DNA from: a virus
Reading direction: 5' to 3' (one strand)
Virus record (IMG/VR): IMGVR_UViG_3300044800_000040
Coordinates: 4,691-68,690 of that record
DNA: 64,000 nt
Under the pieces are notes generated by a model, which was not told the DNA's origin, did no database searches, and was given only the letters and a program-made list of their open reading frames with translations. The translations under genes were made by a program, and so were the position numbers. Shown here in pieces: positions 15,009 to 59,680 of this stretch; position 1 is the first letter of the stretch, and each line of letters starts with the position of its first letter.

Positions 15009-16190
15009 ATGAGTTACGCTGCACTGACCTTCGCGGGAGCACCACTGACGGGCACAGCTATGCTGGCAGCCCTCACTGCCAAGCTCCAGTCCCTCGCAAG
15101 CCTGCGCTCGGGCACAAGCCGTCCGGCGGACGCGCAGACTCCCGAGATGTGGATGGACACGACCACGTCCACGGCCTGGGCGCTCAACATCTGGGACGGC
15201 ACGCACGATATCTGCATCGGGCACGTCAACTCGTCCACGGGCATCTTCACCCCGACGAGTGGCTCCGTGTCCATCGCGGCCGCCACGGGAACGGTGGATG
15301 CAATCACCGCCACGTTCAGCCCGGCGATGCCCTTGACGGACATGACGGTGTGCTTCGTGATTGCTGCTGGAGCGAACACGACCGCCACCCCGACCTTCGC
15401 CCCCAACGGCCTGACCGCACACACCATCACCCGCAGGGGTGGTCAGGCTTTGGCTCCTGGTGACGTGGCCGGGCCCGGTGCCCTGCTCGTGCTGGAGTAC
15501 AACCTGGCAAACACCCGCTGGGAGCTGGGCAACCCAGCCACCATTCAAGAGCCCTGGGCAGTTGCTGCGGGCACTGCGGACGTGATCACACTGACGCTGG
15601 CTCCTGCCGCTCCGGCGCTGGTAGACGGTCTGTGCGTGAGCTTCCGTGCGTCGGGAGCCAACACGGTGACCACCCCCTCGCTCAATGTCAACGGCCTGGG
15701 GGCCAAGACCATCGTGAAGCAGGGCGGTCAGGCTCTCGGCATCGGGGACATCCCCCGCGCCCTGTACGAATGCATCTGCGTCTACAACCTGGCAAACACC
15801 CGCTGGGAATTATTGAACCCGGACAATCCCAACACGGCCCTACGCGATATATCCCAGTCCTACACCGCCACGCACTACCCCGCGCCTGTGGCTCTGACCA
15901 CTACTGGCGGGCATATCTCCTTTGACAACTCCATCCACGCCTACGCTACCCACACCATGACGGAGACTACCAATCTGGACGCCATGAGCAATCGCGCTGA
16001 CGGGCAGGCTGGCGAACTCGTTGTCACTGGCGCGGGCAGCTACACCTTGTCGGCCACGGCCACGAATGGCTGGAAGATGGTGGACGGGACGAGCTTCTCT
16101 GTTTCGCTCGTCGCGGGCAAAAAGACCTGGATTTACTGGGAGTGCAACGGCACCCAGAACCTCATCGTCGGCACGAAGCAGGAGTCCTAA
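15009..16190 (+). CDS. Tail fiber protein with duplicated domain
   Basis: Two copies of GANT..P...NGL...GGQAL..GD...YNLANTRWEL. Confidence 0.75.
   Translation: MSYAALTFAGAPLTGTAMLAALTAKLQSLASLRSGTSRPADAQTPEMWMDTTTSTAWALNIWDGTHDICIGHVNSSTGIFTPTSGSVSIAAATGTVDAITATFSPAMPLTDMTVCFVIAAGANTTATPTFAPNGLTAHTITRRGGQALAPGDVAGPGALLVLEYNLANTRWELGNPATIQEPWAVAAGTADVITLTLAPAAPALVDGLCVSFRASGANTVTTPSLNVNGLGAKTIVKQGGQALGIGDIPRALYECICVYNLANTRWELLNPDNPNTALRDISQSYTATHYPAPVALTTTGGHISFDNSIHAYATHTMTETTNLDAMSNRADGQAGELVVTGAGSYTLSATATNGWKMVDGTSFSVSLVAGKKTWIYWECNGTQNLIVGTKQES
15498..15808 (+). repeat. 26-bp exact direct repeat (15498-15523; 15783-15808)
   Basis: tacaacctggcaaacacccgctggga occurs twice. Confidence 0.9.
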
Positions 16191-21154: not shown

Positions 21155-22465
21155 CTACTGCTCCTCAACGGCCATGATGTAGTCGAGGATGGCCTCGCTG
21201 AACCCGTCCACGTGGTGCCAGGGACCGTAGCCGACGCCGTGGGTGTTGGTCGCCACGTTGACCATGTAGTTGCGGCCGCACTTGGGCGAGCCCACCACGC
21301 CATGACTCTGCTCGTCGGTGAACACGATCAGGCGGTCCCAGGTGGTGTGCTGCTCGAGCCCGCCCAGCGCGGTACCGAGGTACGTGCCCTCGTGCGACTG
21401 GCTCTGCACGATGCTGTCACGCAGCGCGAAGCCCCGGCGCGGGGGCACCTGGCAGAGCTGCATCGAGAACGTGTAGACCTCGATGTCGTCGGACAGCTCG
21501 CGGGCCAGCACAGCCAGGCCGCAGGCGGCATCCATGCGGGTCATGTCGCTCTTGTTGCTGATGGGGTGGTCCATGGAGCCGGACACGTCGATCAGCAGCA
21601 CAGTCTTGCCCGGCAGGTTGACCTTGTCGCCCAGGCAGCGGTACATAGCCTGCTCCAACTCGGGCTCCAGGGCCGGGGCGTAGCGGGCAGCGGCGATGAA
21701 GCGGAAGGGCAGCACACGCTCGGTCTTCATGTTGAGCAAGCCCTGGCGGATGGCGTCGCGGTCGACCCCGGCCTGTTCCATGTTGCGGAGGTTGCGCAGC
21801 AGGGCGAGCGCCCCCAGCTTGCCCTCGGACAGCAGGCGCGTCCAGATGGCCTTCTTGTCGGTACCGCCAGCGGACAGGGCCACTTCCCAGGTGTCGGGGA
21901 TGGCGAGCTGCCCGTCGACGAGGCGCTTCCAGACTTCCGCCTGCACAGCGTCCTTGGGTTTGGCATGGACGAGGAACAGCACGTCACGCAGCTTGACCGC
22001 GTTGTCTCGGTTGTACTTGGCCAGGGCGTACTCGTCGAACTTGGTGAACGCACGCGCAAGGCCCTTCTTGACCTGGGCGGACAGCTTGCACCGTCCAGCC
22101 GACCAGTACAGCGACAGGAACTCGGTGAGCTCGTCAGGGCGCTGGATGATCTGTGCCAGGGTGTCCGCCACCAGGCCCTTGTGATTGGGCAGGTAGGCCA
22201 TGATGCGCGCAATCATCAACGGAGCGTGACGCAGCTTCATCTTGGTACGGGCTTCCACCGCCATGCTCTGCACAGTCACCGGGTCGACCAGGGGCACGAG
22301 CTTGGCAAGGCGTTCGGTGATGGACAGACCGTCCTCGTAGAAGGTGTTCTCCCACAACATGCAGGCCATCAGCGTCCGGCGCAGTTGCAGCTCGGCATTG
22401 ATGCGCTTGGCGGGGGCTCCTTCGTGGGTGCGGATGGGCTGGACGGGGAGGTTGGTGCGGGCCAT
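21155..22465 (-). CDS. rsr: TROVE-domain Ro60/Rsr RNA-binding protein with vWA domain
   Basis: THEG, FYEDG, IQRPDEL, FDEYALAKY, HAKP, TWE, ALLRNLRN, LPFRF, DVSGSM, TDEQ; AAGGAG RBS before ATG 22465. Confidence 0.93.
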   Translation of the reverse strand: MARTNLPVQPIRTHEGAPAKRINAELQLRRTLMACMLWENTFYEDGLSITERLAKLVPLVDPVTVQSMAVEARTKMKLRHAPLMIARIMAYLPNHKGLVADTLAQIIQRPDELTEFLSLYWSAGRCKLSAQVKKGLARAFTKFDEYALAKYNRDNAVKLRDVLFLVHAKPKDAVQAEVWKRLVDGQLAIPDTWEVALSAGGTDKKAIWTRLLSEGKLGALALLRNLRNMEQAGVDRDAIRQGLLNMKTERVLPFRFIAAARYAPALEPELEQAMYRCLGDKVNLPGKTVLLIDVSGSMDHPISNKSDMTRMDAACGLAVLARELSDDIEVYTFSMQLCQVPPRRGFALRDSIVQSQSHEGTYLGTALGGLEQHTTWDRLIVFTDEQSHGVVGSPKCGRNYMVNVATNTHGVGYGPWHHVDGFSEAILDYIMAVEEQ

Positions 22466-22486
22466 AGCAGGCTCCTTGGGTAAGAG

Positions 22487-22549
22487 GTCCGGGAACAGGC
22501 GGCGGCAGTGATGTTCTAGCACGAAGTAACTGCAACCTTCACCACGGAA
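22487..22549 (-). ncRNA. Y-RNA-like unit D (minimal)
   Basis: uccg-UGGUGAAG-stem-UUACUUC-loop-stem-CGCCUGUUCC-cgga. Confidence 0.75.
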
Positions 22550-22559
22550 CACAAAGGCA

Positions 22560-22674
22560 AGATCTGGGAACGAGCGGGGTGTGAGTACCGGCTTTCGCCG
22601 GGTGCGGTCGTCTCCGAGCCGCGACGCTCCCGAAGGAGCGGGCAGATGTATCACAACCCTATCACCACAGATCT
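22560..22674 (-). ncRNA. Y-RNA-like unit C (three-hairpin domain)
   Basis: agaucug-UGGUGAUA...AUACAUC...UUCG and GAAA hairpins...CGCUCGUUCC-cagaucu. Confidence 0.8.
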
Positions 22675-22684
22675 GAAAGAGCGA

Positions 22685-22817
22685 AGTCGGGGAACAAGCG
22701 ATCAAGGCATTTTTCCAGCTGCTCTACCAGTTGAGCTACGGGTGCCGAAGCTCCCGACGGGATTTGAACCCGTGACCAACTGTTCCGATGAAGTAGCCCT
22801 GGTCTTCACCACCGACT
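22685..22817 (-). ncRNA. YrlA-like Y RNA with permuted tRNA-like domain (unit B)
   Basis: T arm ACGGG-UUCAAAU-CCCGU, then closed acceptor-like hairpin, then D arm UAGCUCAACUGGUAGAGCA, inside a UGGUGAAG/CGCUUGUUCC stem. Confidence 0.88.
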
Positions 22818-22825
22818 GAAAACTG

Positions 22826-22894
22826 TTGACGGAGGAACGAGCGGTTCGCGGTGTATTTCCCCAAGAAGTAGCCGCGGCCTTCACCATCCGTCGA
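22826..22894 (-). ncRNA. Y-RNA-like unit A (minimal)
   Basis: ucgacgga-UGGUGAAG-GCCGCGG-CUACUUC...CCGCG..CGCUCGUUCC-uccgucaa. Confidence 0.78.
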
Positions 22895-22900
22895 GGACCT

Positions 22901-22909
22901 ATTATACGC
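22901..22909 (-). promoter_or_regulatory. GCGTATAAT promoter for the Y RNA array and rsr
   Basis: TATAAT ends 6 nt before unit A; the motif recurs elsewhere. Confidence 0.75.
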
Positions 22910-23596: not shown

Positions 23597-24211
23597 CTAG
23601 GCTACATCGACGTCAGCTGTCACCACCCCAGACCTCACCTTGAACACCCGGTCAGCCGCTTCGACGATGCCGGGCAGGTGTGAGATCATGATTATCTGAA
23701 GATGTAGTTGCTTGGCAAGCCCCCGCAACATCTCGGCGCATGCCTGGTGCAGATCGGTGCTCACGAACTTGAAGGGCTCATCGAGGATGATCACCGGGCG
23801 CGAACGGCTCAACGCCCAGAAGGCCATGCGCAGAGCCAGGCTGGCCACGTCCAGGGGTCCACCTCCGGAGCTGGTCATGGGGTCGAGGTGTGTCATGTTG
23901 CCCCGCGCGAAGTACAGGTCGCACTCCACCCGACCACGCCTGTCCACGAACTCCACCTTGAACTCGTAGGGGTCCGGGAACACGGCCGCCAGGGCGGAGC
24001 TGACCAGGGAGGACAGATGCACTTCGAGCTGTTGCTGGGTCATGCGCGCCGCTTCCTGCACGACGGTCTTGGCCTGGGCGAGCGTCTGGACCTCCGCCTC
24101 GGCCGAGTCCGCCAGAGCCTGGGCCTTGGCCCTCTGCTCCTGCCAGGACTGCAAGTCCGCACGCATGCGGGAGACCCTGCGCCGCAGGACGGCTATGCGT
24201 TCGATTGGCAT
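23597..24211 (-). CDS. SbcC/Rad50-like ATPase, C-terminal half
   Basis: SSGGG signature, IILDEPF Walker B, ISH. Confidence 0.85.
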   Translation of the reverse strand: MPIERIAVLRRRVSRMRADLQSWQEQRAKAQALADSAEAEVQTLAQAKTVVQEAARMTQQQLEVHLSSLVSSALAAVFPDPYEFKVEFVDRRGRVECDLYFARGNMTHLDPMTSSGGGPLDVASLALRMAFWALSRSRPVIILDEPFKFVSTDLHQACAEMLRGLAKQLHLQIIMISHLPGIVEAADRVFKVRSGVVTADVDVA

Positions 24212-24444
24212 GCCGCCTCCAGCTGCTCCACCTCGTTGATGAGCTCCTCCTCGAGGGTGTGCTGGCGGGTCTCCAGCTTGTCCAGTTCCTTGTTCGCAGC
24301 AGTGATGGTCTTGAAGCCGAGCTCCTCCAGCGTCTTCATGCCGGCATCGAGTTCACCCTGGGCCCGGTCCATGTCTCGCTGGGCGGTGCGTTCCAGTTCT
24401 TCAAGTTGCTTGAGACGCCGCAGGGCGTCGTTCACGTCAGACAT
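24193..24444 (-). CDS. Coiled-coil protein
   Basis: Heptad-rich; GGAGG RBS. Confidence 0.65.
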   Translation of the reverse strand: MSDVNDALRRLKQLEELERTAQRDMDRAQGELDAGMKTLEELGFKTITAANKELDKLETRQHTLEEELINEVEQLEAACQSNA

Positions 24445-25408
24445 GACTCATCGCCTCCTCAATGAAAGGTTCGACGCGCTTGCGTTCCTCTGTGGGCAGG
24501 CTGTGCAGTACGCGGTGCAGGTTGTCCTTGAAGTTGGTGCCGGCTTCCTGGCCGGAGGTGAGGTTTTCGATGAACAGCTCCAGGCGTTCGTTGCGCTCTG
24601 CCAGCAGCTCGGCCCGGTCAACGTCGAAGACCCTGGCAGCGGGTTCGCAGGGGATCCAATGCCGGGTGAGTTCCCGGTGGTAGGAGTCCCAGACGTAGGC
24701 GCGGGGGCGGTGGTCGATTTGGTCGATGCTGGAGCGCATGAGGGAGCCGCAATTCACCACGTGCCTGTTCTTCACGGAGACAGTGAATGCCTTGTGGTTG
24801 TCGCCACACACCCAGAGGTCCACCGTTGGGTAGTCCTCGAGCAGCGTGCGCGCATCGAGGTTGCCCTCCTGGCCCTCCCAGAGCTTGCCGGAGTTGGTGG
24901 TCATGGCGTGCATGATCACAACGTGCGGACGGTTGGGGTACTGGGTGAACGTCAGGTGCTCCATCTCGTCCGGGGTGGGTAGGGTGCATCCCCAGGCACG
25001 GAACAGGATCGCGATGTCGTGGGTCGGCACGAACTCCAGACCAGACTCGGCACTGATGGTGACCTGCCCGGACATGGTCTCGTTGAGGAGCCCTGCCGGG
25101 GTGTTCACCAGGGACAGGTTGTGAAAGTGGGTGTCGTGCTGGCCCAGGGTCGTGTAGATGTGGACGTTTGTGGGGGTCAGCAACTTCACGAGACGGGTCA
25201 CAACCTCGTACGATGCCCTGGGGGAGTCAACGAGGTCTCCTGGCTGCATAAGACCGGGGCATGATTCGCCGTCCTCCTTGGCAACCCTGGTTGCCAGGTC
25301 GAGCAGGAACTTGAGCTTGCCCAGGGCAGTGCCAAGATAGTCCGCATCTGTGCGGAAACGGGGACGCCTGTCAGTGAGGTGCAGGTCACCAGCAAGTACG
25401 AACCTCAT
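24437..25408 (-). CDS. SbcD/Mre11-like metallophosphoesterase nuclease
   Basis: GDLH, GDLVD, GQHD, GDNH, NCGSL. Confidence 0.88.
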   Translation of the reverse strand: MRFVLAGDLHLTDRRPRFRTDADYLGTALGKLKFLLDLATRVAKEDGESCPGLMQPGDLVDSPRASYEVVTRLVKLLTPTNVHIYTTLGQHDTHFHNLSLVNTPAGLLNETMSGQVTISAESGLEFVPTHDIAILFRAWGCTLPTPDEMEHLTFTQYPNRPHVVIMHAMTTNSGKLWEGQEGNLDARTLLEDYPTVDLWVCGDNHKAFTVSVKNRHVVNCGSLMRSSIDQIDHRPRAYVWDSYHRELTRHWIPCEPAARVFDVDRAELLAERNERLELFIENLTSGQEAGTNFKDNLHRVLHSLPTEERKRVEPFIEEAMSHV

Positions 25409-34429: not shown

Positions 34430-34438
34430 ATTATACGC
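34430..34438 (-). promoter_or_regulatory. GCGTATAAT promoter motif
   Basis: Exact motif at the head of a 200-nt intergenic leader. Confidence 0.7.
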
Positions 34439-36408: not shown

Positions 36409-39096
36409 TCACTCCATGATGTTGTGGCCGCACTTGGGGCAGCCGAAGACCTTTTTCTTGGTGACCTTGTCGAAGCCCTTGCGCATGAATGCACTGCCGC
36501 AGGGGCACTGCTTGGCTACCAGCTCCTTGAGGTTGTACCAGGGCTCGTCGACCAGGGTGCATTCAACCTCGATCTCCAGGGGCACGATGATCCACTTCCA
36601 CTCGGCGACAAGCTCCTTGGTCATTATACGCCGGCAGGCGTTGACGACCATGTCCAGCTCATCGGGGTCGATGCTCATGACAATGGAGTCGTGGATCTGG
36701 CCGATGGGAAACGACTTCCACTTCTCCTTGCGGGCAAGCTCGGTGATTCTGGCGAACGACCAGAGCAGGCAGTGGAACGCGCTCCCTTGCACGGGGTAAT
36801 TGATGGCGTCGTTCTTCATCATGAGCCCGCCACACTGGAAGCCGGTCAAGGTCTTGAAGTAGCCGCGCTTGCTGTATGCCTTGAGATGGTCCTCCTTCCA
36901 CTGCTGGTAGACCGGGAAGCGTTCGTACCAGAAGTGCCGCTCCACCTTCTCGATGTGCTTGGCGAAGGTGTCCTGATTGCGGATGCCAACCGAGGCCAGG
37001 TGCTCGCGCAGAGGGATGCCGTCCGCGGTCTCCTCGTGGATGCCGTCGGCCCAGAGCCCCTTGGCACAAGCCTTCCACCAGTCGCCGTAGAACTGGGGGA
37101 ACACGAACTTGTTCTTTGCTGCCTGGCGCAGCGGCTTGCTGACTTGCTTCTCCTTGAGCTTGTAACACTCGGCCGCCATGTCCCGGTGCATGTCCGTCGA
37201 GTCGTCGAAGATGTAGGTGAGCATGGTCGGGTCTTCGTGGTAGCACGCGGCAACACGCACCTCGACGCCGGAGTAGTCCAGCTCCATCATGATGTGCCCA
37301 GGGTGCGGCAGGATGGCCCGGCGAGTGATCTTCTGGCTTTCCGGGTCACGCTTGGGCACGTTCTGGAAGTTGGGGTTGGAGGAGCTGCTGCGGTAGGTCA
37401 CCACCGTGTGCAGGTTGAAGAACGGGTGCATGTAGCCGTCGACCGTCTCCCGCACCCAACCACCCAGGTACGTGCCCCGGATCTTGTCCAGCTTGCGGTA
37501 CTCGAGCAGGTCGTCCACGATGGGGATGTTCATGCTGCGCAGGGAGTCCGCATCAACCGAGGGCTTGCCGCTGGCTGTCTTCTTTGCGATCTCCACCCCC
37601 AGGTCTTCCACAATGACCTTGGCGAGCTGGTCGTCCGAGTCGAGGTTGTAGTTCGCCCCGTACCTGGCACGTAGCCCCTTGCCGAGCTTGGAGTCCATCA
37701 CGGTGGCCTTGAGGTTCTTGCAGCGCCTGTCCAGATGGGAGAGCTGGCGGTGGCAGTAGTCCATGTCCATGCGCAGCCCTTTGACCTCGGCGTCGACCAG
37801 GGCAATCGCCCCGTCGTGCAGCAGGGTGTACGCTGGCATCAGCTTGCGCCGGGCCATCTCCTCCTTCTGCTTGAGCATGAGCCGGTGCTGCACCAGGGCA
37901 TCCGTGCCGCCATACTTGAGCAGGGCGTCGATGGGTGCCTGGTGGATGCGGTTCATGGAGTTGGCGTTCTTGCGGTCCTTGCTCTCCAGGTACTTGCTGA
38001 TCTGGGTCGAGTAGTCTGCCTGGCCGAAGTTGACATACGACTGGAACTTGAGGCCGTGTACTCCCTGGCGGTTGTCCAGGACGTGCGCTGCCAGCATGGA
38101 GCACCAATCCCAGGACTGCACTCTCTGGCGCAAGGCAACGATCGACCACAGCTGCTCGAACTTGAGGCCATGCGCCGACTTGCGCAGACCCTCGTCCGCC
38201 AGCATGACCCGCATGGCCGTCTGCACTTCCTTGTCGTGCATGGTGAAGGCTACGGCATGACCTGGGTCCTGGCATACCGATGCAGTGAAGATGCGGTGCC
38301 CCTCCGCTTGAGGTTTGCGTCCAGTTGTCTCCCAGTCAAAGGAGACGACGTTGTCGCGCCTCTTGGGCAGACTTCGCAGGTAGTTGATGACTTGCTTGGG
38401 CTCCCACAAGATCTCAACCCCATCGGTGGGGTCTTCCCATGCGGGCAGGGGCTGGTCGACCAGGGTCAGCGCCGCCTTGAGGTCTTGCTTCCAGATCGTC
38501 CAGATGGCCTCGAGGTTCTCCATGCGCATGATGTAGCTGGGGTGGTAGGTCGGGCACACCCAAGCGCCGTATGTGTGCTCCGGGATGTGCCAGCCGCGCC
38601 ACTTGCCAATACCCCCGGCACTGCGCTCGCTGTCGTCCTCCTCGTCCTCGAGGTAGCGGGGCTCGAGGATGGACTGCACCGCCACGTTGCCCAGGGGAAT
38701 GATCAGCGAGGGCTTGTAGCGTTCGATGGCTTCCAGTACCCGGGGGCGGCAGCACTCGATCTCGATGTCCTCGGGGGTTCTGTTCTCTGGCGGCCGGCAG
38801 TTCACTGCGTTGGTCTTCCAGCAGTCCCGGTCGAGATCGATGTCCAGCTCGGCCAGGGTGTCGCGCAGGGTCTGGCCTGCCTTGCCCACCAGTTGGGTGT
38901 TGCGCACGTCCTCGGTGCGCCCTGGTGCCTCGGCTATGATCAGGATGCCCTTGCGCCCTTTGCCAGTTGGCTCCATGCGTGGAGAGCGGCAGGTCTTCCA
39001 AAGCCCGCACCCGTCACAACCCAGGGCACGGGGGCTGCCCTTGGCACGGGCCTTGGAGATGACCGTGGTGACTTCGGATGCCTTAAAGAAGGCCAT
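36409..39096 (-). CDS. Family A DNA polymerase with N-terminal UDG-like domain (SPO1 type)
   Basis: AEAPG..ED, NAVNCRPPENRTP, TYHPS; DWETTG exonuclease; SSSNPNFQN, DYSGVEVR, INYPVQGSA, QIHDS. Confidence 0.95.
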   Translation of the reverse strand: MAFFKASEVTTVISKARAKGSPRALGCDGCGLWKTCRSPRMEPTGKGRKGILIIAEAPGRTEDVRNTQLVGKAGQTLRDTLAELDIDLDRDCWKTNAVNCRPPENRTPEDIEIECCRPRVLEAIERYKPSLIIPLGNVAVQSILEPRYLEDEEDDSERSAGGIGKWRGWHIPEHTYGAWVCPTYHPSYIMRMENLEAIWTIWKQDLKAALTLVDQPLPAWEDPTDGVEILWEPKQVINYLRSLPKRRDNVVSFDWETTGRKPQAEGHRIFTASVCQDPGHAVAFTMHDKEVQTAMRVMLADEGLRKSAHGLKFEQLWSIVALRQRVQSWDWCSMLAAHVLDNRQGVHGLKFQSYVNFGQADYSTQISKYLESKDRKNANSMNRIHQAPIDALLKYGGTDALVQHRLMLKQKEEMARRKLMPAYTLLHDGAIALVDAEVKGLRMDMDYCHRQLSHLDRRCKNLKATVMDSKLGKGLRARYGANYNLDSDDQLAKVIVEDLGVEIAKKTASGKPSVDADSLRSMNIPIVDDLLEYRKLDKIRGTYLGGWVRETVDGYMHPFFNLHTVVTYRSSSSNPNFQNVPKRDPESQKITRRAILPHPGHIMMELDYSGVEVRVAACYHEDPTMLTYIFDDSTDMHRDMAAECYKLKEKQVSKPLRQAAKNKFVFPQFYGDWWKACAKGLWADGIHEETADGIPLREHLASVGIRNQDTFAKHIEKVERHFWYERFPVYQQWKEDHLKAYSKRGYFKTLTGFQCGGLMMKNDAINYPVQGSAFHCLLWSFARITELARKEKWKSFPIGQIHDSIVMSIDPDELDMVVNACRRIMTKELVAEWKWIIVPLEIEVECTLVDEPWYNLKELVAKQCPCGSAFMRKGFDKVTKKKVFGCPKCGHNIME

Positions 39097-45729: not shown

Positions 45730-45738
45730 ATTATACGC
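45730..45738 (-). promoter_or_regulatory. GCGTATAAT promoter motif
   Basis: Exact motif, intergenic. Confidence 0.72.
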
Positions 45739-47538: not shown

Positions 47539-47547
47539 ATTATACGC
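47539..47547 (-). promoter_or_regulatory. GCGTATAAT promoter motif
   Basis: Exact motif, intergenic. Confidence 0.72.
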
Positions 47548-52840: not shown

Positions 52841-52849
52841 ATTATACGC
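52841..52849 (-). promoter_or_regulatory. GCGTATAAT promoter motif abutting the terminator
   Basis: Exact motif. Confidence 0.68.
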
Positions 52850-53544
52850 TACGCCGTGAGAAAAGAGCGAAGGAGGTTTTGCGCGATGGTGCCCGTGTTT
52901 GCTTTGCCGTGGCAACTGGCGCACAGGCAGATGAGGTTGGTGGGGGTGTTGTTGTCCTTGTCGAAGTCGATGTGGTGTACATCCATCTTGCCATGAGTTC
53001 GGGAGCAGAATCGACAGGCGTTCCCATCGCGCTGCCGGATCGCTTGGCGTAGCCAACGTGTCCATTCTTTCCCGTATGGCAGGGAGCTCACTCCACCCTG
53101 CCAGTTGGGACCATCCTCCCCGCGGAACTTGCCGGTGTTTGCTTCGCGCAAACGCTCCTTCGTTGCTTGTGTGTGCTGCTTGCCGAGGAATGCGTTTGGG
53201 TTGTTCTGGTGCCATTCTTTCAGGGTGCGTGAGATTGCTTCGCGCTGATCTTGTGGTATTTGTTTGCCCTTGCTGGAGGCGGATATCTTGTCCCCCCAAG
53301 TGATCATGCGCCCCATCATTCCCCGCGAAATCTTCTGACGGGTTTCCGCGGATACGCAGTACCCCTGTTCCTTGTGCAGACGCTCTCGTTCGGCAGCCGC
53401 CACCGACATTTTTTTCTTGGCCTGTTCGGTATGTCGATGACCAGTGGAGGCCACTCGGCGGGCCTCCACTTCTTCCGGATGCTCCGCTAGTCTCTTCTTC
53501 ATGCTGGCGGAGATCTTGGCGCGGCGTTGTTCTTCGTTGGTCAC
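52849..53544 (-). CDS. Free-standing HNH homing endonuclease with NUMOD3-like repeats
   Basis: HTEQAKKKMS, RDGNACRFC, VHHIDFDKDNN..NLICLCASCH. Confidence 0.88.
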   Translation of the reverse strand: MTNEEQRRAKISASMKKRLAEHPEEVEARRVASTGHRHTEQAKKKMSVAAAERERLHKEQGYCVSAETRQKISRGMMGRMITWGDKISASSKGKQIPQDQREAISRTLKEWHQNNPNAFLGKQHTQATKERLREANTGKFRGEDGPNWQGGVSSLPYGKEWTRWLRQAIRQRDGNACRFCSRTHGKMDVHHIDFDKDNNTPTNLICLCASCHGKANTGTIAQNLLRSFLTA

Positions 53545-58363: not shown

Positions 58364-58382
58364 GATCTGCTCCTTGTTGATG

Positions 58383-58446
58383 TTGGTTGCCTCATCAGTG
58401 ACCGGGACCCGCCCGGCCAGACAGGGGCACATGCCCCTGTTTCGGC
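58383..58446 (-). ncRNA. Type II hammerhead ribozyme
   Basis: gcc-GAAA-caggggc/gcccctg-UC-tggccggg/cccggtca-CUGAUGA-ggc. Confidence 0.92.
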
Positions 58447-58821
58447 TTACTTGATCTGCGTGACCTCGACGATTTCCAGCATGGCGCCCTGCTCGCGGGC
58501 GATGATGAGCTGTTCCCAGGCAGCCTTACCACCCAGGTCACGGATGGTCTTGTTCGCCCAGTTGCGCCAGGTCGATGGACGGGAGCCACGGGGGTTGCAG
58601 ACCTCGTTGAAGTCGCGGCGTCCGGTGAGCTGGTTCAGGGACATGCGGGCGGCCTTCTCGGCGTTTGACCGTGAGCTGCTGAAGCCCGAGATGCTGTAGC
58701 GCATCGGGGAGTCAGCCCGGTCGCACTCGACGTAGTAGGCATGCGTGTACGGGTTGTGCGAGCTGCGGGTGATGATCTCCCCAGTCGAGAAGGTGGCGGT
58801 GAACTTGTGCTTGGCGGTCAT
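58447..58821 (-). CDS. Hypothetical early protein
   Basis: GGAGG RBS. Confidence 0.65.
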   Translation of the reverse strand: MTAKHKFTATFSTGEIITRSSHNPYTHAYYVECDRADSPMRYSISGFSSSRSNAEKAARMSLNQLTGRRDFNEVCNPRGSRPSTWRNWANKTIRDLGGKAAWEQLIIAREQGAMLEIVEVTQIK

Positions 58822-59074: not shown

Positions 59075-59097
59075 CGTAAGCTCCTTTGTGGTGAATG

Positions 59098-59166
59098 TTG
59101 GTTGCCATCGTCAGGCCCATGCAACCTTGCATGAGCGACACCCACCAGTGAGGCGGGTGTTTCGGC
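59098..59166 (-). ncRNA. Type II hammerhead ribozyme (extra U after A9)
   Basis: gcc-GAAA-cacccgcc/ggtgggtg-UC-gctcatgc/gcatgggc-CUGACGA-u-ggc. Confidence 0.87.
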
Positions 59167-59680
59167 TTTGTTGTACGAGGCAGGAAGGCTACCCAGCCTG
59201 TGCTCTCGGTTGTTGGGGGTAGGCCGCTGGGCCTTGTGGTGCCGCTTCCTTCCTACCCCGGTGCCCCTTGAGGGCCTCTCTTGTCAGTTCCCGGCGGCCT
59301 CGTTCGGCCGCACCCCATATATAAAGCCGTGCAAGACGCATTACAAGGGGTCTGGAGGCATTTGTAGAAAATTCTTTTCCTAACAGAACAGGCACTTACG
59401 AAAAAATCTTGCGGCAACGTGCGGCAACTGCCGAGGAAGAACCCCAGATCCGCACGAAAACCCGGGATCACCAGTGGGCAAGCATGGGAAAGGAAATCCG
59501 CAGTGAGGAGGGGCACACCAGGGTGAAGCCTGGGCCTCGATCAGCACAGGACAGCCAGCCAGAGCAGGGCAGTGTCACACCAGTCGACACCAGCTGACAG
59601 CAAGGACACCAGACAAGGTCGGAAGCCACAGTGCGCAACGCTCTTGTCTCACCGAGGATGATCCGGTAGTTGTCTCTGTC

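What the first reader, a model, noticed from the sequence alone, without database searches (positions are those of the whole stretch)
21155..22909. Phage Ro60 operon with a tandem array of four Y-RNA-like units carrying different payload domains
Seen: the 430-nt gap upstream of rsr is filled by four self-closing stems. They share UGGUGA(AG/UA) on the 5' strand, a UAC(U/A)UC box and CGCYYGUUCC on the 3' strand, while the flanking helices differ in sequence yet keep pairing (gacgga/uccguc, agucgg/ccgacu, agaucug/cagaucu, uccg/cgga). Payloads differ: short loops (A, D), a T-arm/acceptor/D-arm permuted tRNA mimic (B) and a three-hairpin junction (C). A GCGTATAAT motif sits 6 nt before unit A. Known: Ro60/Rsr binds Y RNA stems, YrlA RNAs have this permuted tRNA domain, and Ro-Y RNPs act in RNA decay and repair. 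Inference: one protein with four interchangeable RNA adaptors, perhaps decoying host anticodon nucleases or recruiting host RNases.
Basis: partly seen in the sequence, partly recalled or inferred. Interest (0 to 1): 0.9.

Follow-up and report, generated by a model that had tools for sequence, protein, structure and literature searches.

The report
Four Y RNAs before phage Ro60
An uncultivated phage carries a Ro60-type RNA-binding protein gene preceded by four small RNA genes that share one protein-docking stem but carry different tips, which extends a known bacterial and phage system rather than revealing a new one.

Summary
On the minus strand, a 436-nt gap between a GCGTATAAT promoter box and an rsr (TROVE plus vWA) gene contains four self-closing units: A 22892-22828, B 22817-22685, C 22674-22560 and D 22548-22488. 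All four share a closing stem, a UGGUGA box, a UAC(U/A)UC box and a CGCYYGUUCC box.

A covariance model built only from 133 units of other loci finds exactly these four in the 64-kb window and nothing else. The shared stem covaries strongly: 95% of cells pair against 67% in shuffles, and 14 of 14 pairs show compensatory change.

Unit B is a YrlA-type permuted tRNA mimic, but scores below Rfam's gathering threshold. A and D are minimal hairpins. C has a three-hairpin tip with no relative.

Arrays like this are common. I found 1-8 units upstream of rsr in 26 phage or viral loci, 59 of 69 metagenome loci and 4 of 4 MAG loci.

Best reading: a co-transcribed set of Y RNAs for one phage Ro60. The anticodon-nuclease decoy idea gets no support here, because no unit has an anticodon loop. 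Expression and binding are untested. I rate it a new variant of a known kind, of moderate interest.

The parts
22901..22909 (-). GCGTATAAT promoter box with a perfect -10 hexamer, ending 8 nt before unit A
   Evidence: Sequence. TATAAT occurs 7 times in the window, all on the minus strand, against 0.94 expected. GCGTATAAT has 6 exact copies, all on the minus strand; with up to 1 mismatch there are 11 matches against 1.74 expected (contexts). The generic sigma-70 scan did not call it because the -35 is weak (7 of 12).
22828..22892 (-). Unit A: a minimal Y-RNA-like hairpin of 65 nt with a 6-bp closing stem
   Evidence: R3 45.5 bits, E 2.4e-8. R1 67.5 and R2 57.3 bits, but A was in the training sets of those two models. 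No Rfam match.
22685..22817 (-). Unit B: YrlA-type Y RNA of 133 nt. The Y stem carries a T-arm, a closed acceptor-like hairpin with a UUCG loop, and a D-arm.
   Evidence: Rfam YrlA RF02553 at 42.2 bits, E 5.4e-8 in a 601-nt search, full model 1-114, but below the gathering score of 69 and absent at gathering threshold. R1 gave 49.0 bits although B was not in its training set. R3 gave 54.3 bits. ARAGORN calls no tRNA.
22560..22674 (-). Unit C: a Y stem with a 7-bp closing stem that carries a three-hairpin junction with UUCG, GAGA and GAAA loops. It has no T- or D-loop motif.
   Evidence: R2 38.0 bits, E 2.8e-7, and R3 37.5 bits, E 1.6e-6; C was in no training set. Fold -48.8 kcal/mol, z -2.63. 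The payload has no BLAST relative in the roughly 105 related loci.
22488..22548 (-). Unit D: a minimal Y-RNA-like hairpin of 61 nt with a 4-bp closing stem. It ends 22 nt before the rsr start codon.
   Evidence: R3 55.5 bits, E 1.2e-10. R1 66.9 and R2 61.2 bits, but D was in the training sets of those two models.
22472..22477 (-). AAGGAG ribosome-binding site of rsr, 6 nt before the ATG
   Evidence: Sequence.
21155..22465 (-). rsr: a Ro60/TROVE protein of 436 aa with a C-terminal vWA domain and a DVSGS (DxSxS) motif
   Evidence: Pfam TROVE E 7e-19, 68.8 bits against a cut-off of 23. vWA_Ro60 scores 23.9, below its cut-off of 27.7. PHROG 850 'RNA-binding protein', E 1.4e-50. PDB 9KOP/9L5Y, phiLo Ro60, E 3.1e-26. 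Translation.

Best explanation
This is a phage Ro60 (Rsr) operon whose leader encodes four Y RNAs.

Proposed sequence of events:
1. A phage promoter of the recurrent GCGTATAAT class starts transcription a few nucleotides before unit A. One transcript runs through A, B, C, D and rsr (inferred).
2. Host endoribonucleases cut in the 10-11-nt U-rich linkers and release four stem-closed RNAs of about 61-133 nt. This is inferred by analogy with M. smegmatis YrlA and YrlB, which are processed from one precursor upstream of rsr.
3. Each RNA docks on the phage Rsr through the same conserved module: the closing stem, two G-C pairs, and an asymmetric internal loop with UGAAG on the 5' side and GCYYGUU on the 3' side. 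That conservation and covariation are shown; the binding is inferred.
4. The variable tips give the Rsr particle different partners or properties (inferred). B offers a tRNA-shaped domain. A and D offer only a conserved loop, pyrimidine-rich on its 5' side and A-rich on its 3' side. C offers a private three-hairpin junction.

The most likely overall role is to redirect or dampen host RNA decay and RNA quality control during infection, for example through PNPase.
For: Gene identity: TROVE, PHROG 850 and phiLo Ro60.

Specificity:
- R3, trained without any window sequence, hits only the four units in 128 kb of searched strand.
- R2 gives 86 hits at E<=1 in 27 sources. Of these, 85 lie upstream of rsr on its strand.
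- R2 gives 161 hits in 69 metagenome loci, all upstream of rsr, 160 on the rsr strand and 1 on the opposite strand.
- R2 gives 13 hits in 4 MAG loci, 3-4 per locus.

Structure:
- A plain MAFFT alignment of 8 short units gives 10 of 14 pairs with compensatory change.
- A4, 46 units: 96.5% of cells paired against 63.3% in shuffles and 44-57% in slid controls.
- A5, 133 units: 95.0% against 67.2%, with 14 of 14 pairs compensatory.

Motif: the 5' box GG(C/U)G(A/U)AG overlaps the GNCGAAN0-1G motif that Chen et al. 2014 propose for Rsr recognition (PMC4201824, passages).

Promoter:
- GCGTATAAT has 6 exact copies, all on the coding strand.
- In 10 of 23 loci a sigma-70 match of at least 9 of 12 lies within 50 nt before the first unit, against 1.8% of random windows.

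Precedent:
- Y RNAs near Ro60 in 254 bacteria and 22 phages; at least two Y RNAs in each studied species; the M. smegmatis pair processed from one precursor (PMC4201824, sections 5 and 10 and passages).
- phiLo Ro60 binds two upstream Yrl RNAs and host PNPase (PMC12135203, passages).
Against: - There is no expression, processing or binding data for this phage. No RNA run holds the sequence, and the host is unknown.
- A and D do not fold better than shuffled sequence (z -0.81 and -0.16).
- Alignments A4 and A5 were fitted to the model, so their pair counts lean towards the structure.
- R3's training units were collected with R2, which had seen A, B and D, so R3 is independent in sequence but not in design.
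- C's payload has no homologue, so its fold rests on energy alone.
- The promoter has a weak -35 and failed the generic scan.
- B is below Rfam's gathering score.
- 10 of the 69 metagenome loci gave no unit. Four of those had a full 1.3 kb of upstream sequence.
- The phage has no RtcB, no PF09414 RNA ligase and no tRNA gene, so nothing in the genome points to a specific pathway.
Confidence: 0.8

Rival explanations
1. The four stems are a cis-acting structured leader. Rsr binds its own 5' UTR to autoregulate translation or mRNA stability, and no separate small RNAs are made.
For: No terminator-like site lies between the units and rsr. Unit D ends only 22 nt before the ATG and 10 nt before the ribosome-binding site. 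The units are always on the rsr strand and directly upstream.
Against: One of the best-scoring units, L044 1201-1263 at 70.9 bits, lies on the opposite strand to rsr and cannot be part of its leader. In S. Typhimurium the Y RNAs lie 3' of rsr (10.1101/312249, passage). In M. smegmatis they are cut out of the precursor (PMC4201824, passage). Conserved tRNA-like payloads in 39 of 78 units have no obvious role in a leader. The two readings are not exclusive.
Confidence: 0.1
2. This is the first reader's idea: the units are decoys for host tRNA-cleaving defence nucleases, with Rsr serving only to stabilise them.
For: B has a full tRNA elbow, with canonical T-loop and D-loop motifs. In related phages, 12 of 78 units carry an anticodon-arm-like hairpin (5-bp stem, 7-nt loop with U at position 2 and a purine at position 6) placed 4-5 nt before the T-arm.
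Against: None of the window's four units has such a loop. B's anticodon position is taken by the Y stem, as in solved YrlA, which 'lacks the anticodon loop' (10.1101/312249, passage). Three of the four units are not tRNA-like at all. No defence or repair gene is linked.
Confidence: 0.06
3. The units are decaying relics of a tRNA gene cluster, or a repeat family, and have no function of their own.
For: The 5' box resembles the acceptor-to-D-arm junction of some tRNAs; this comparison is recalled from memory, not tested. Depositors annotated related units as tRNA-Thr and tRNA-Ser. tRNA clusters flank rsr in L007 and L015.
Against: Compensatory change in all 14 stem pairs across 130 distinct sequences indicates selection on the structure. 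The UAC(U)UC box is nearly invariant. The link to rsr is exclusive: no other hit in the whole 68.7-kb genome. ARAGORN and Rfam tRNA find no tRNA here.
Confidence: 0.04

Closest known systems
YrlA (Rfam RF02553), the tRNA-like Y RNA of S. Typhimurium, M. smegmatis and 22 phages (Chen et al. 2014, PMC4201824)
   Same: Unit B has the same order of parts: Ro60-binding stem, conserved UA box, T-arm, closed acceptor-like hairpin and D-arm. Like YrlA it is encoded next to rsr on the same strand.
   Different: B scores 42.2 bits against a gathering score of 69. Its 5' box is GGUGAAG, with U where the published GNCGAAN0-1G motif has C. Both strands of the docking helix are conserved here, whereas Chen et al. 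say only the 5' strand is recognisable in the Salmonella and M. smegmatis RNAs. A, C and D lack the tRNA domain.
[quoted passage not shown]
   Same: A and D are simple hairpins with a pyrimidine-rich 5' loop side. They lie beside a YrlA-type RNA and upstream of rsr.
   Different: Chen et al. report that Salmonella YrlB has orthologues only in other S. enterica serovars and that Ro60-bound RNAs in all three studied bacteria eluded bioinformatic discovery. Here one model finds short units in dozens of loci. A and D, at 61-65 nt, are shorter than the 80-130 nt quoted for characterised Y RNAs. No homology to YrlB was tested, because no YrlB sequence was on hand.
Thermus phage phiLo Ro60 with Yrl1 and Yrl2 (PMC12135203, 2025; PDB 9KOP and 9L5Y)
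   Same: It is the closest solved protein, E 3.1e-26. It is phage-encoded, its Y-RNA-like genes lie in the upstream non-coding region, and binding of the RNAs and of host PNPase was shown in vitro.
   Different: phiLo has two RNAs, found through CGAA motifs. The window has four units with a UGAAG or UGAUAG box, and one of them is a tRNA mimic. I did not compare the RNA sequences.
Vertebrate Y RNA sets (two to four per species)
   Same: One Ro60 serves several RNAs that share the docking stem and differ in the loop, which binds other proteins (PMC4201824 introduction; 10.1101/312249).
   Different: By recall, vertebrate Y genes are separate polymerase III units. Here the units lie head to tail behind one promoter and in front of the protein gene.
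Listeria phage CKA15: three highly transcribed regions upstream of an Rsr-like gene (PMC12282133, 2025)
   Same: Several abundant phage RNAs are made within 2 kb upstream of, and in the same direction as, a phage Rsr-like gene. The authors suggest they may be Y RNAs.
   Different: That report has expression data but no structural model. This one has a structural and comparative model but no expression data. I did not examine the CKA15 sequence.

Membership tests
Y RNA (Ro60-associated non-coding RNA) | Encoded close to a Ro60/Rsr gene, usually on the same strand | tested here: met
   All four units lie within 430 nt upstream of rsr on its strand. The same holds for 85 of 86 R2 hits and 160 of 161.
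Y RNA (Ro60-associated non-coding RNA) | The 5' and 3' ends pair into a stem that holds a conserved bulged helix or internal loop, the Ro60 docking site (GNCGAAN0-1G-type 5' strand) | tested here: met
   Closing stem, GG/CC pairs and an asymmetric loop are present in all four units. The family motif is GG(C/U)G(A/U)AG. The window has the U variant. Covariation is shown.
Y RNA (Ro60-associated non-coding RNA) | Accumulates as a discrete small RNA that is bound and stabilised by Ro60 | not testable with these tools
   No RNA run holds the sequence, and no RNA-protein prediction tool was available.
YrlA (Rfam RF02553) | tRNA-like effector domain: T-arm, closed acceptor-like stem, D-arm | tested here: met
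   Met for unit B only, with a full-length alignment and canonical T- and D-loops. A, C and D have no T-arm, so they are not YrlA.
YrlA (Rfam RF02553) | Reaches the curated gathering score of 69 bits | tested here: not met
   B scores 42.2 bits, and the window has no YrlA hit at gathering threshold. Units in 10 related loci score 31-56 bits, all below the threshold.
Ro60 / Rsr protein | TROVE (HEAT-repeat ring) domain | tested here: met
   PF05731 at 68.8 bits against a cut-off of 23. phiLo Ro60 matches at E 3.1e-26 over residues 12-390.
Ro60 / Rsr protein | C-terminal vWA domain with a MIDAS motif | tested here: inconclusive
   vWA_Ro60 scores 23.9 bits, below its cut-off of 27.7, and VWA_2 scores 22.2, below 27. 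A DVSGS (DxSxS) motif is present in the translation. No structure was predicted.
tRNA | Cloverleaf with open acceptor ends and an anticodon arm | tested here: not met
   ARAGORN finds 0 genes in the window. Rfam tRNA gives no match in the whole phage genome.

The most novel reading that the evidence does not exclude
Phage and phage-like Ro60 operons may carry an expandable cassette of Y RNA adaptors. A constant, covarying docking stem with a nearly invariant UACUUC box would act as a socket. Evolution would plug different tips into it: nothing, a T-arm alone, a permuted or unpermuted tRNA body with or without an anticodon loop, or private folds such as unit C. One viral protein could then be aimed at several host RNA-handling machines at once. 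The window's four-unit set, and the eight-unit sets of Caulobacter phages CcrColossus and CcrPW, would be working examples. The short units would define a Y RNA class that current databases miss.
Probability: 0.3. Interest if true: 0.7.

Novelty: new variant of a known kind. Interest (0 to 1): 0.48.

Why it matters
Ro60-Y RNA particles are conserved from bacteria to humans, and what their RNA tips do is still poorly understood.

If the four units are real adaptors, phage arrays become a natural library of tips on a common docking stem. They also give a sequence and structure model that finds the non-tRNA Y RNAs, which earlier searches could not find by homology.

Cultivable relatives with 5-8 units (Caulobacter, Brevundimonas and Xanthomonas phages) would make it possible to test directly what a virus gains from Ro60.

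The basic system, phage Ro60 with upstream Y RNAs, is already published, so this extends known biology rather than opening new ground.

Tried and rejected
- Rfam at gathering threshold finds no Y RNA family in the window, only two Hammerhead_II elsewhere.
- R1 with filters off truncated B to 16 bits and missed C. This is a window-length limit of the short model, not evidence against those units.
- R1 gave a weak hit at window 52968-53029 (+), 15.2 bits, E 0.29. R2 gave one at 15801-15872 (-), 14 bits, E 0.7. Neither was repeated by the other models, so I treat both as chance.
- Sequencing runs: no RNA holder is listed. There are two DNA holders, one of which may be the source sample. I did not use read laying because contigs of DNA runs cannot show RNA ends.
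- The generic sigma-70 and terminator scan did not call the array promoter. It found one weak terminator-like site after rsr.
- A BLAST of unit C and its payload against all fetched loci found no relative.
- The closest relatives found have only 45-67% Rsr identity. Orthologous units for a unit-by-unit comparison were therefore not available.
- There is no RtcB, no PF09414 RNA ligase and no tRNA gene in the phage genome. I dropped an RNA-repair-operon reading like Salmonella rsr-yrlBA-rtcBA.
- The extended ORF 21155-22705 (TTG start), which would cover units C and D, was rejected. Homologues align from residues 1-13 of the ATG-22465 form, and a strong ribosome-binding site precedes that ATG.
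Supplementary tables of Chen et al. 2014 could not be opened.
Full report
**What is there**

The window is bases 4691-68690 of a 68,690-bp virus record with direct terminal repeats, estimated 100% complete. Its only full DNA holder among public runs is labelled a peat metagenome and may be the source sample.

On the minus strand an ORF from ATG 22465 to 21155 encodes a 436-aa protein. The evidence that it is a Ro60/Rsr homologue:
- Pfam TROVE, E 7e-19, above the cut-off.
- A sub-threshold Ro60-type vWA match.
- A DVSGS motif in the translation.
- PHROG 850, E 1.4e-50.
- Its only solved relatives are the two PDB entries (9KOP, 9L5Y) for the Ro60 of Thermus phage phiLo, E 3.1e-26.

Upstream genes are an unknown 70-aa ORF that ends inside the promoter box, another unknown ORF, and SbcC-like and SbcD-like genes. 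The downstream genes are unknown. The genome has no RtcB, no PF09414 RNA ligase and no tRNA gene.

**The four units**

There are four stem-closed units:
- A, 22892-22828
- B, 22817-22685
- C, 22674-22560
- D, 22548-22488

They are separated by U-rich linkers of 10, 10 and 11 nt. After D come 22 nt that contain AAGGAG.

Each unit has the same layout:
- a private closing stem of 4-7 bp;
- U, then GG paired to CC;
- an asymmetric internal loop, UGAAG or UGAUAG opposite GCYYGUU;
- a second helix whose sequence differs in every unit;
- the box UAC(U/A)UC;
- a variable tip.

**Is it more than chance?**

Folding energy alone is weak evidence. The z-scores are -0.81, -1.82, -2.63 and -0.16 for A to D. 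The comparative evidence is strong.

- I fetched rsr loci from three named phages, 23 viral contigs, 80 metagenome contigs and 4 MAG contigs.
- R1 was built from 10 short units, including A and D. It gave 62 hits at E<=10 in 27 sources, and 61 of them lay upstream of rsr on its strand. B scored 49 bits although it was not in the training set.
- R2 was built from 46 R1 hits. It gave 86 hits at E<=1. Of these, 85 are upstream units and one is a 14-bit hit elsewhere in the window. Unit C, never used for training, scored 38.0 bits (E 2.8e-7).
- R3 was built from 133 units of 49 metagenome and MAG loci, with no window sequence. It finds exactly four hits at E<=1 in the window on both strands, and they are D 55.5, B 54.3, A 45.5 and C 37.5 bits.
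- Caveats: the E-values come from a shortened calibration and are rough, and R3's training units were gathered with R2.

**Structure**

- A plain MAFFT alignment of 8 short units gave 14 consensus pairs, 10 of them with compensatory changes.
- On the model-fitted alignments, which lean towards the structure, A4 has 96.5% of cells paired. Shuffles give 63.3% and slid controls 44-57%.
- A5 has 95.0% paired against 67.2% in shuffles, and all 14 pairs show changes on both sides.
- In A4, several positions are invariant or nearly so, including the GG/CC pairs, the G of the loop and the UACUUC box.
- The 5' box is GG(C/U)G(A/U)AG. Half of the relatives carry the C form, which fits the GNCGAAN0-1G motif that Chen et al. 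2014 propose for Rsr recognition (PMC4201824, passages). The window carries the U form.
- The conserved UA corresponds to the UA noted as conserved in YrlA RNAs (10.1101/312249, passage). This equivalence is my inference from the Rfam alignment.

**The tips**

- B aligns to Rfam YrlA over the whole model. It has a T-arm with a UUCAAAU loop, a closed acceptor-like hairpin and a D-arm. It scores 42.2 bits against a gathering score of 69, so standard annotation misses it.
- A and D have only the pyrimidine-rich and A-rich loop.
- C carries three hairpins with UUCG, GAGA and GAAA loops on a four-way junction. It has no sequence relative in any fetched locus, so its fold cannot be tested by covariation.

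**How common are such arrays?**

R2 unit counts per locus:

| Locus | Units |
|---|---|
| window | 4 |
| Xanthomonas phages Sopo and 10KY502B | 5 each |
| Brevundimonas phage Gurke | 6 |
| Caulobacter phages CcrColossus and CcrPW | 8 each |
| L016 | 5 |
| other loci | 1-3 |

For the metagenome loci I searched 69 of the 80.
- I left out five that are the same contigs as viral loci: L030, L038, L040, L049 and L075.
- I left out six with fewer than 75 nt upstream of the match: L080, L087, L091, L094, L101 and L104.
- Of the 69 searched, 59 had at least one unit, with 161 hits in all. All 161 lie upstream of rsr, 160 on its strand and one on the opposite strand (L044).
- Eleven loci had four or five units.
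- Ten loci had none, four of them despite 1.3 kb of upstream sequence.

The four MAG loci had 3-4 units each, so the layout is not confined to recognisable phages.

In a census of 78 units from 24 loci, 27 were 80 nt or shorter and 39 had a T-arm. Twelve had an anticodon-arm-like hairpin just before the T-arm, and none of those twelve is in the window.

**Transcription**

- TATAAT occurs 7 times in the window, all on the minus strand, against 0.94 expected.
- Six of those copies are GCGTATAAT. This is therefore a recurrent promoter-type box of this phage, and one copy sits 8 nt before unit A.
- In 10 of 23 loci, a sigma-70 match of at least 9 of 12 lies within 50 nt before the first unit, against 1.8% of random windows.
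- The generic scan did not call the window's own site because its -35 is poor.
- No terminator-like site separates the units from rsr.
- Co-transcription followed by processing is therefore the simplest reading, but it is inferred.

**Comparison with what is known**

- Chen et al. 2014 reported YrlA-type RNAs next to Ro60 in 254 bacteria and 22 phages. They found at least two Y RNAs in each species studied, showed that M. smegmatis YrlA and YrlB are cut from one precursor upstream of rsr, and suggested that extra Y RNAs widen the range of Ro60 partners (PMC4201824; abstract, sections 5 and 10, and passages).
- Wang et al. showed that the YrlA tip is a true tRNA fold without an anticodon loop (10.1101/312249, passages).
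- The 2025 phiLo study found two Y-like RNAs upstream of a phage Ro60 and showed binding to them and to host PNPase, with slower PNPase decay in vitro. It cites CcrColossus as a phage already known to have Y-like RNA (PMC12135203, passages).
- A 2025 Listeria phage study saw three abundant RNAs upstream of an Rsr-like gene and suggested they may be Y RNAs (PMC12282133, passages).
- My six literature searches found no description of arrays of four to eight units or of a general model for the non-tRNA units.
- That negative result has limits. The supplementary tables of Chen et al. were closed, the 2018 and 2020 reviews are not held, and subscription journals are not searched. Those sources may bear on the claim.

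**Verdict**

The reading as a Ro60-Y RNA operon is well supported by comparison (confidence 0.8), but expression, processing and binding are untested. The anticodon-nuclease decoy idea has no support in this window.

The system belongs to a known kind. It differs from published cases in four ways:
- the number of units;
- the conserved two-stranded docking module with its U-variant box;
- the very short units A and D;
- the private tip of unit C.

Three of the four units are invisible to current models. I rate it a new variant of a known kind, with moderate interest.

Noticed in passing
window 58381-58447 (-) and 59096-59167 (-): Two type II hammerhead ribozymes about 650 nt apart on the minus strand. 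They score 45.3 and 51.5 bits against a gathering score of 37.
   Followed up: no
window 22901-22909, 34430-34438, 36623-36631, 45730-45738, 47539-47547, 52841-52849 (all -): GCGTATAAT occurs six times exactly, always on the minus strand. With one mismatch there are 11 matches against 1.74 expected. It is probably the phage's own promoter class.
   Followed up: partly
L018 1263-2454 and L019 1267-2455 (Caulobacter phages CcrColossus and CcrPW): Eight tandem Y-RNA-like units lie upstream of rsr, the largest arrays seen. In the fourth unit the two phages differ in the three central loop bases of an anticodon-arm-like hairpin, CUG against UAG.
   Followed up: partly
L001 1964-2097, L002 1954-2083, L003 1965-2094, L013 2305-2436, L017 2344-2478, L024 511-641 and others: Twelve of 78 units in related loci carry a hairpin with a 5-bp stem and a 7-nt loop (U at position 2, purine at position 6), placed 4-5 nt before the T-arm. 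This amounts to a whole permuted tRNA body on a Y stem. Two such units are annotated as tRNA-Thr and tRNA-Ser in the public records. By Wang et al.'s scheme this hairpin sits at the variable-arm position.
   Followed up: partly
L024 361-495: This unit's tip is an unpermuted tRNA body: D-arm, anticodon arm and T-arm in the natural order. Rfam tRNA scores 55.4 bits over model positions 5-66. The Y stem stands where the acceptor stem would be.
   Followed up: no
L044 1201-1263 (-): The best-scoring unit of the metagenome set, 70.9 bits, lies on the strand opposite to rsr, just upstream of it. It is the only such case among 161 hits.
   Followed up: no
L007 1181-1574; L007 3837-4169; L015 2023-2095 and 3802-6225: A tmRNA gene (113 bits) lies just upstream of one array. 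tRNA gene clusters flank rsr in two viral contigs, so in some phages rsr sits in a tRNA and tmRNA neighbourhood. The window's phage has no tRNA gene.
   Followed up: no
window 23597-24211 (-) and 24437-25408 (-): SbcC-like ATPase and SbcD-like phosphoesterase genes lie upstream of the operon.
   Followed up: no
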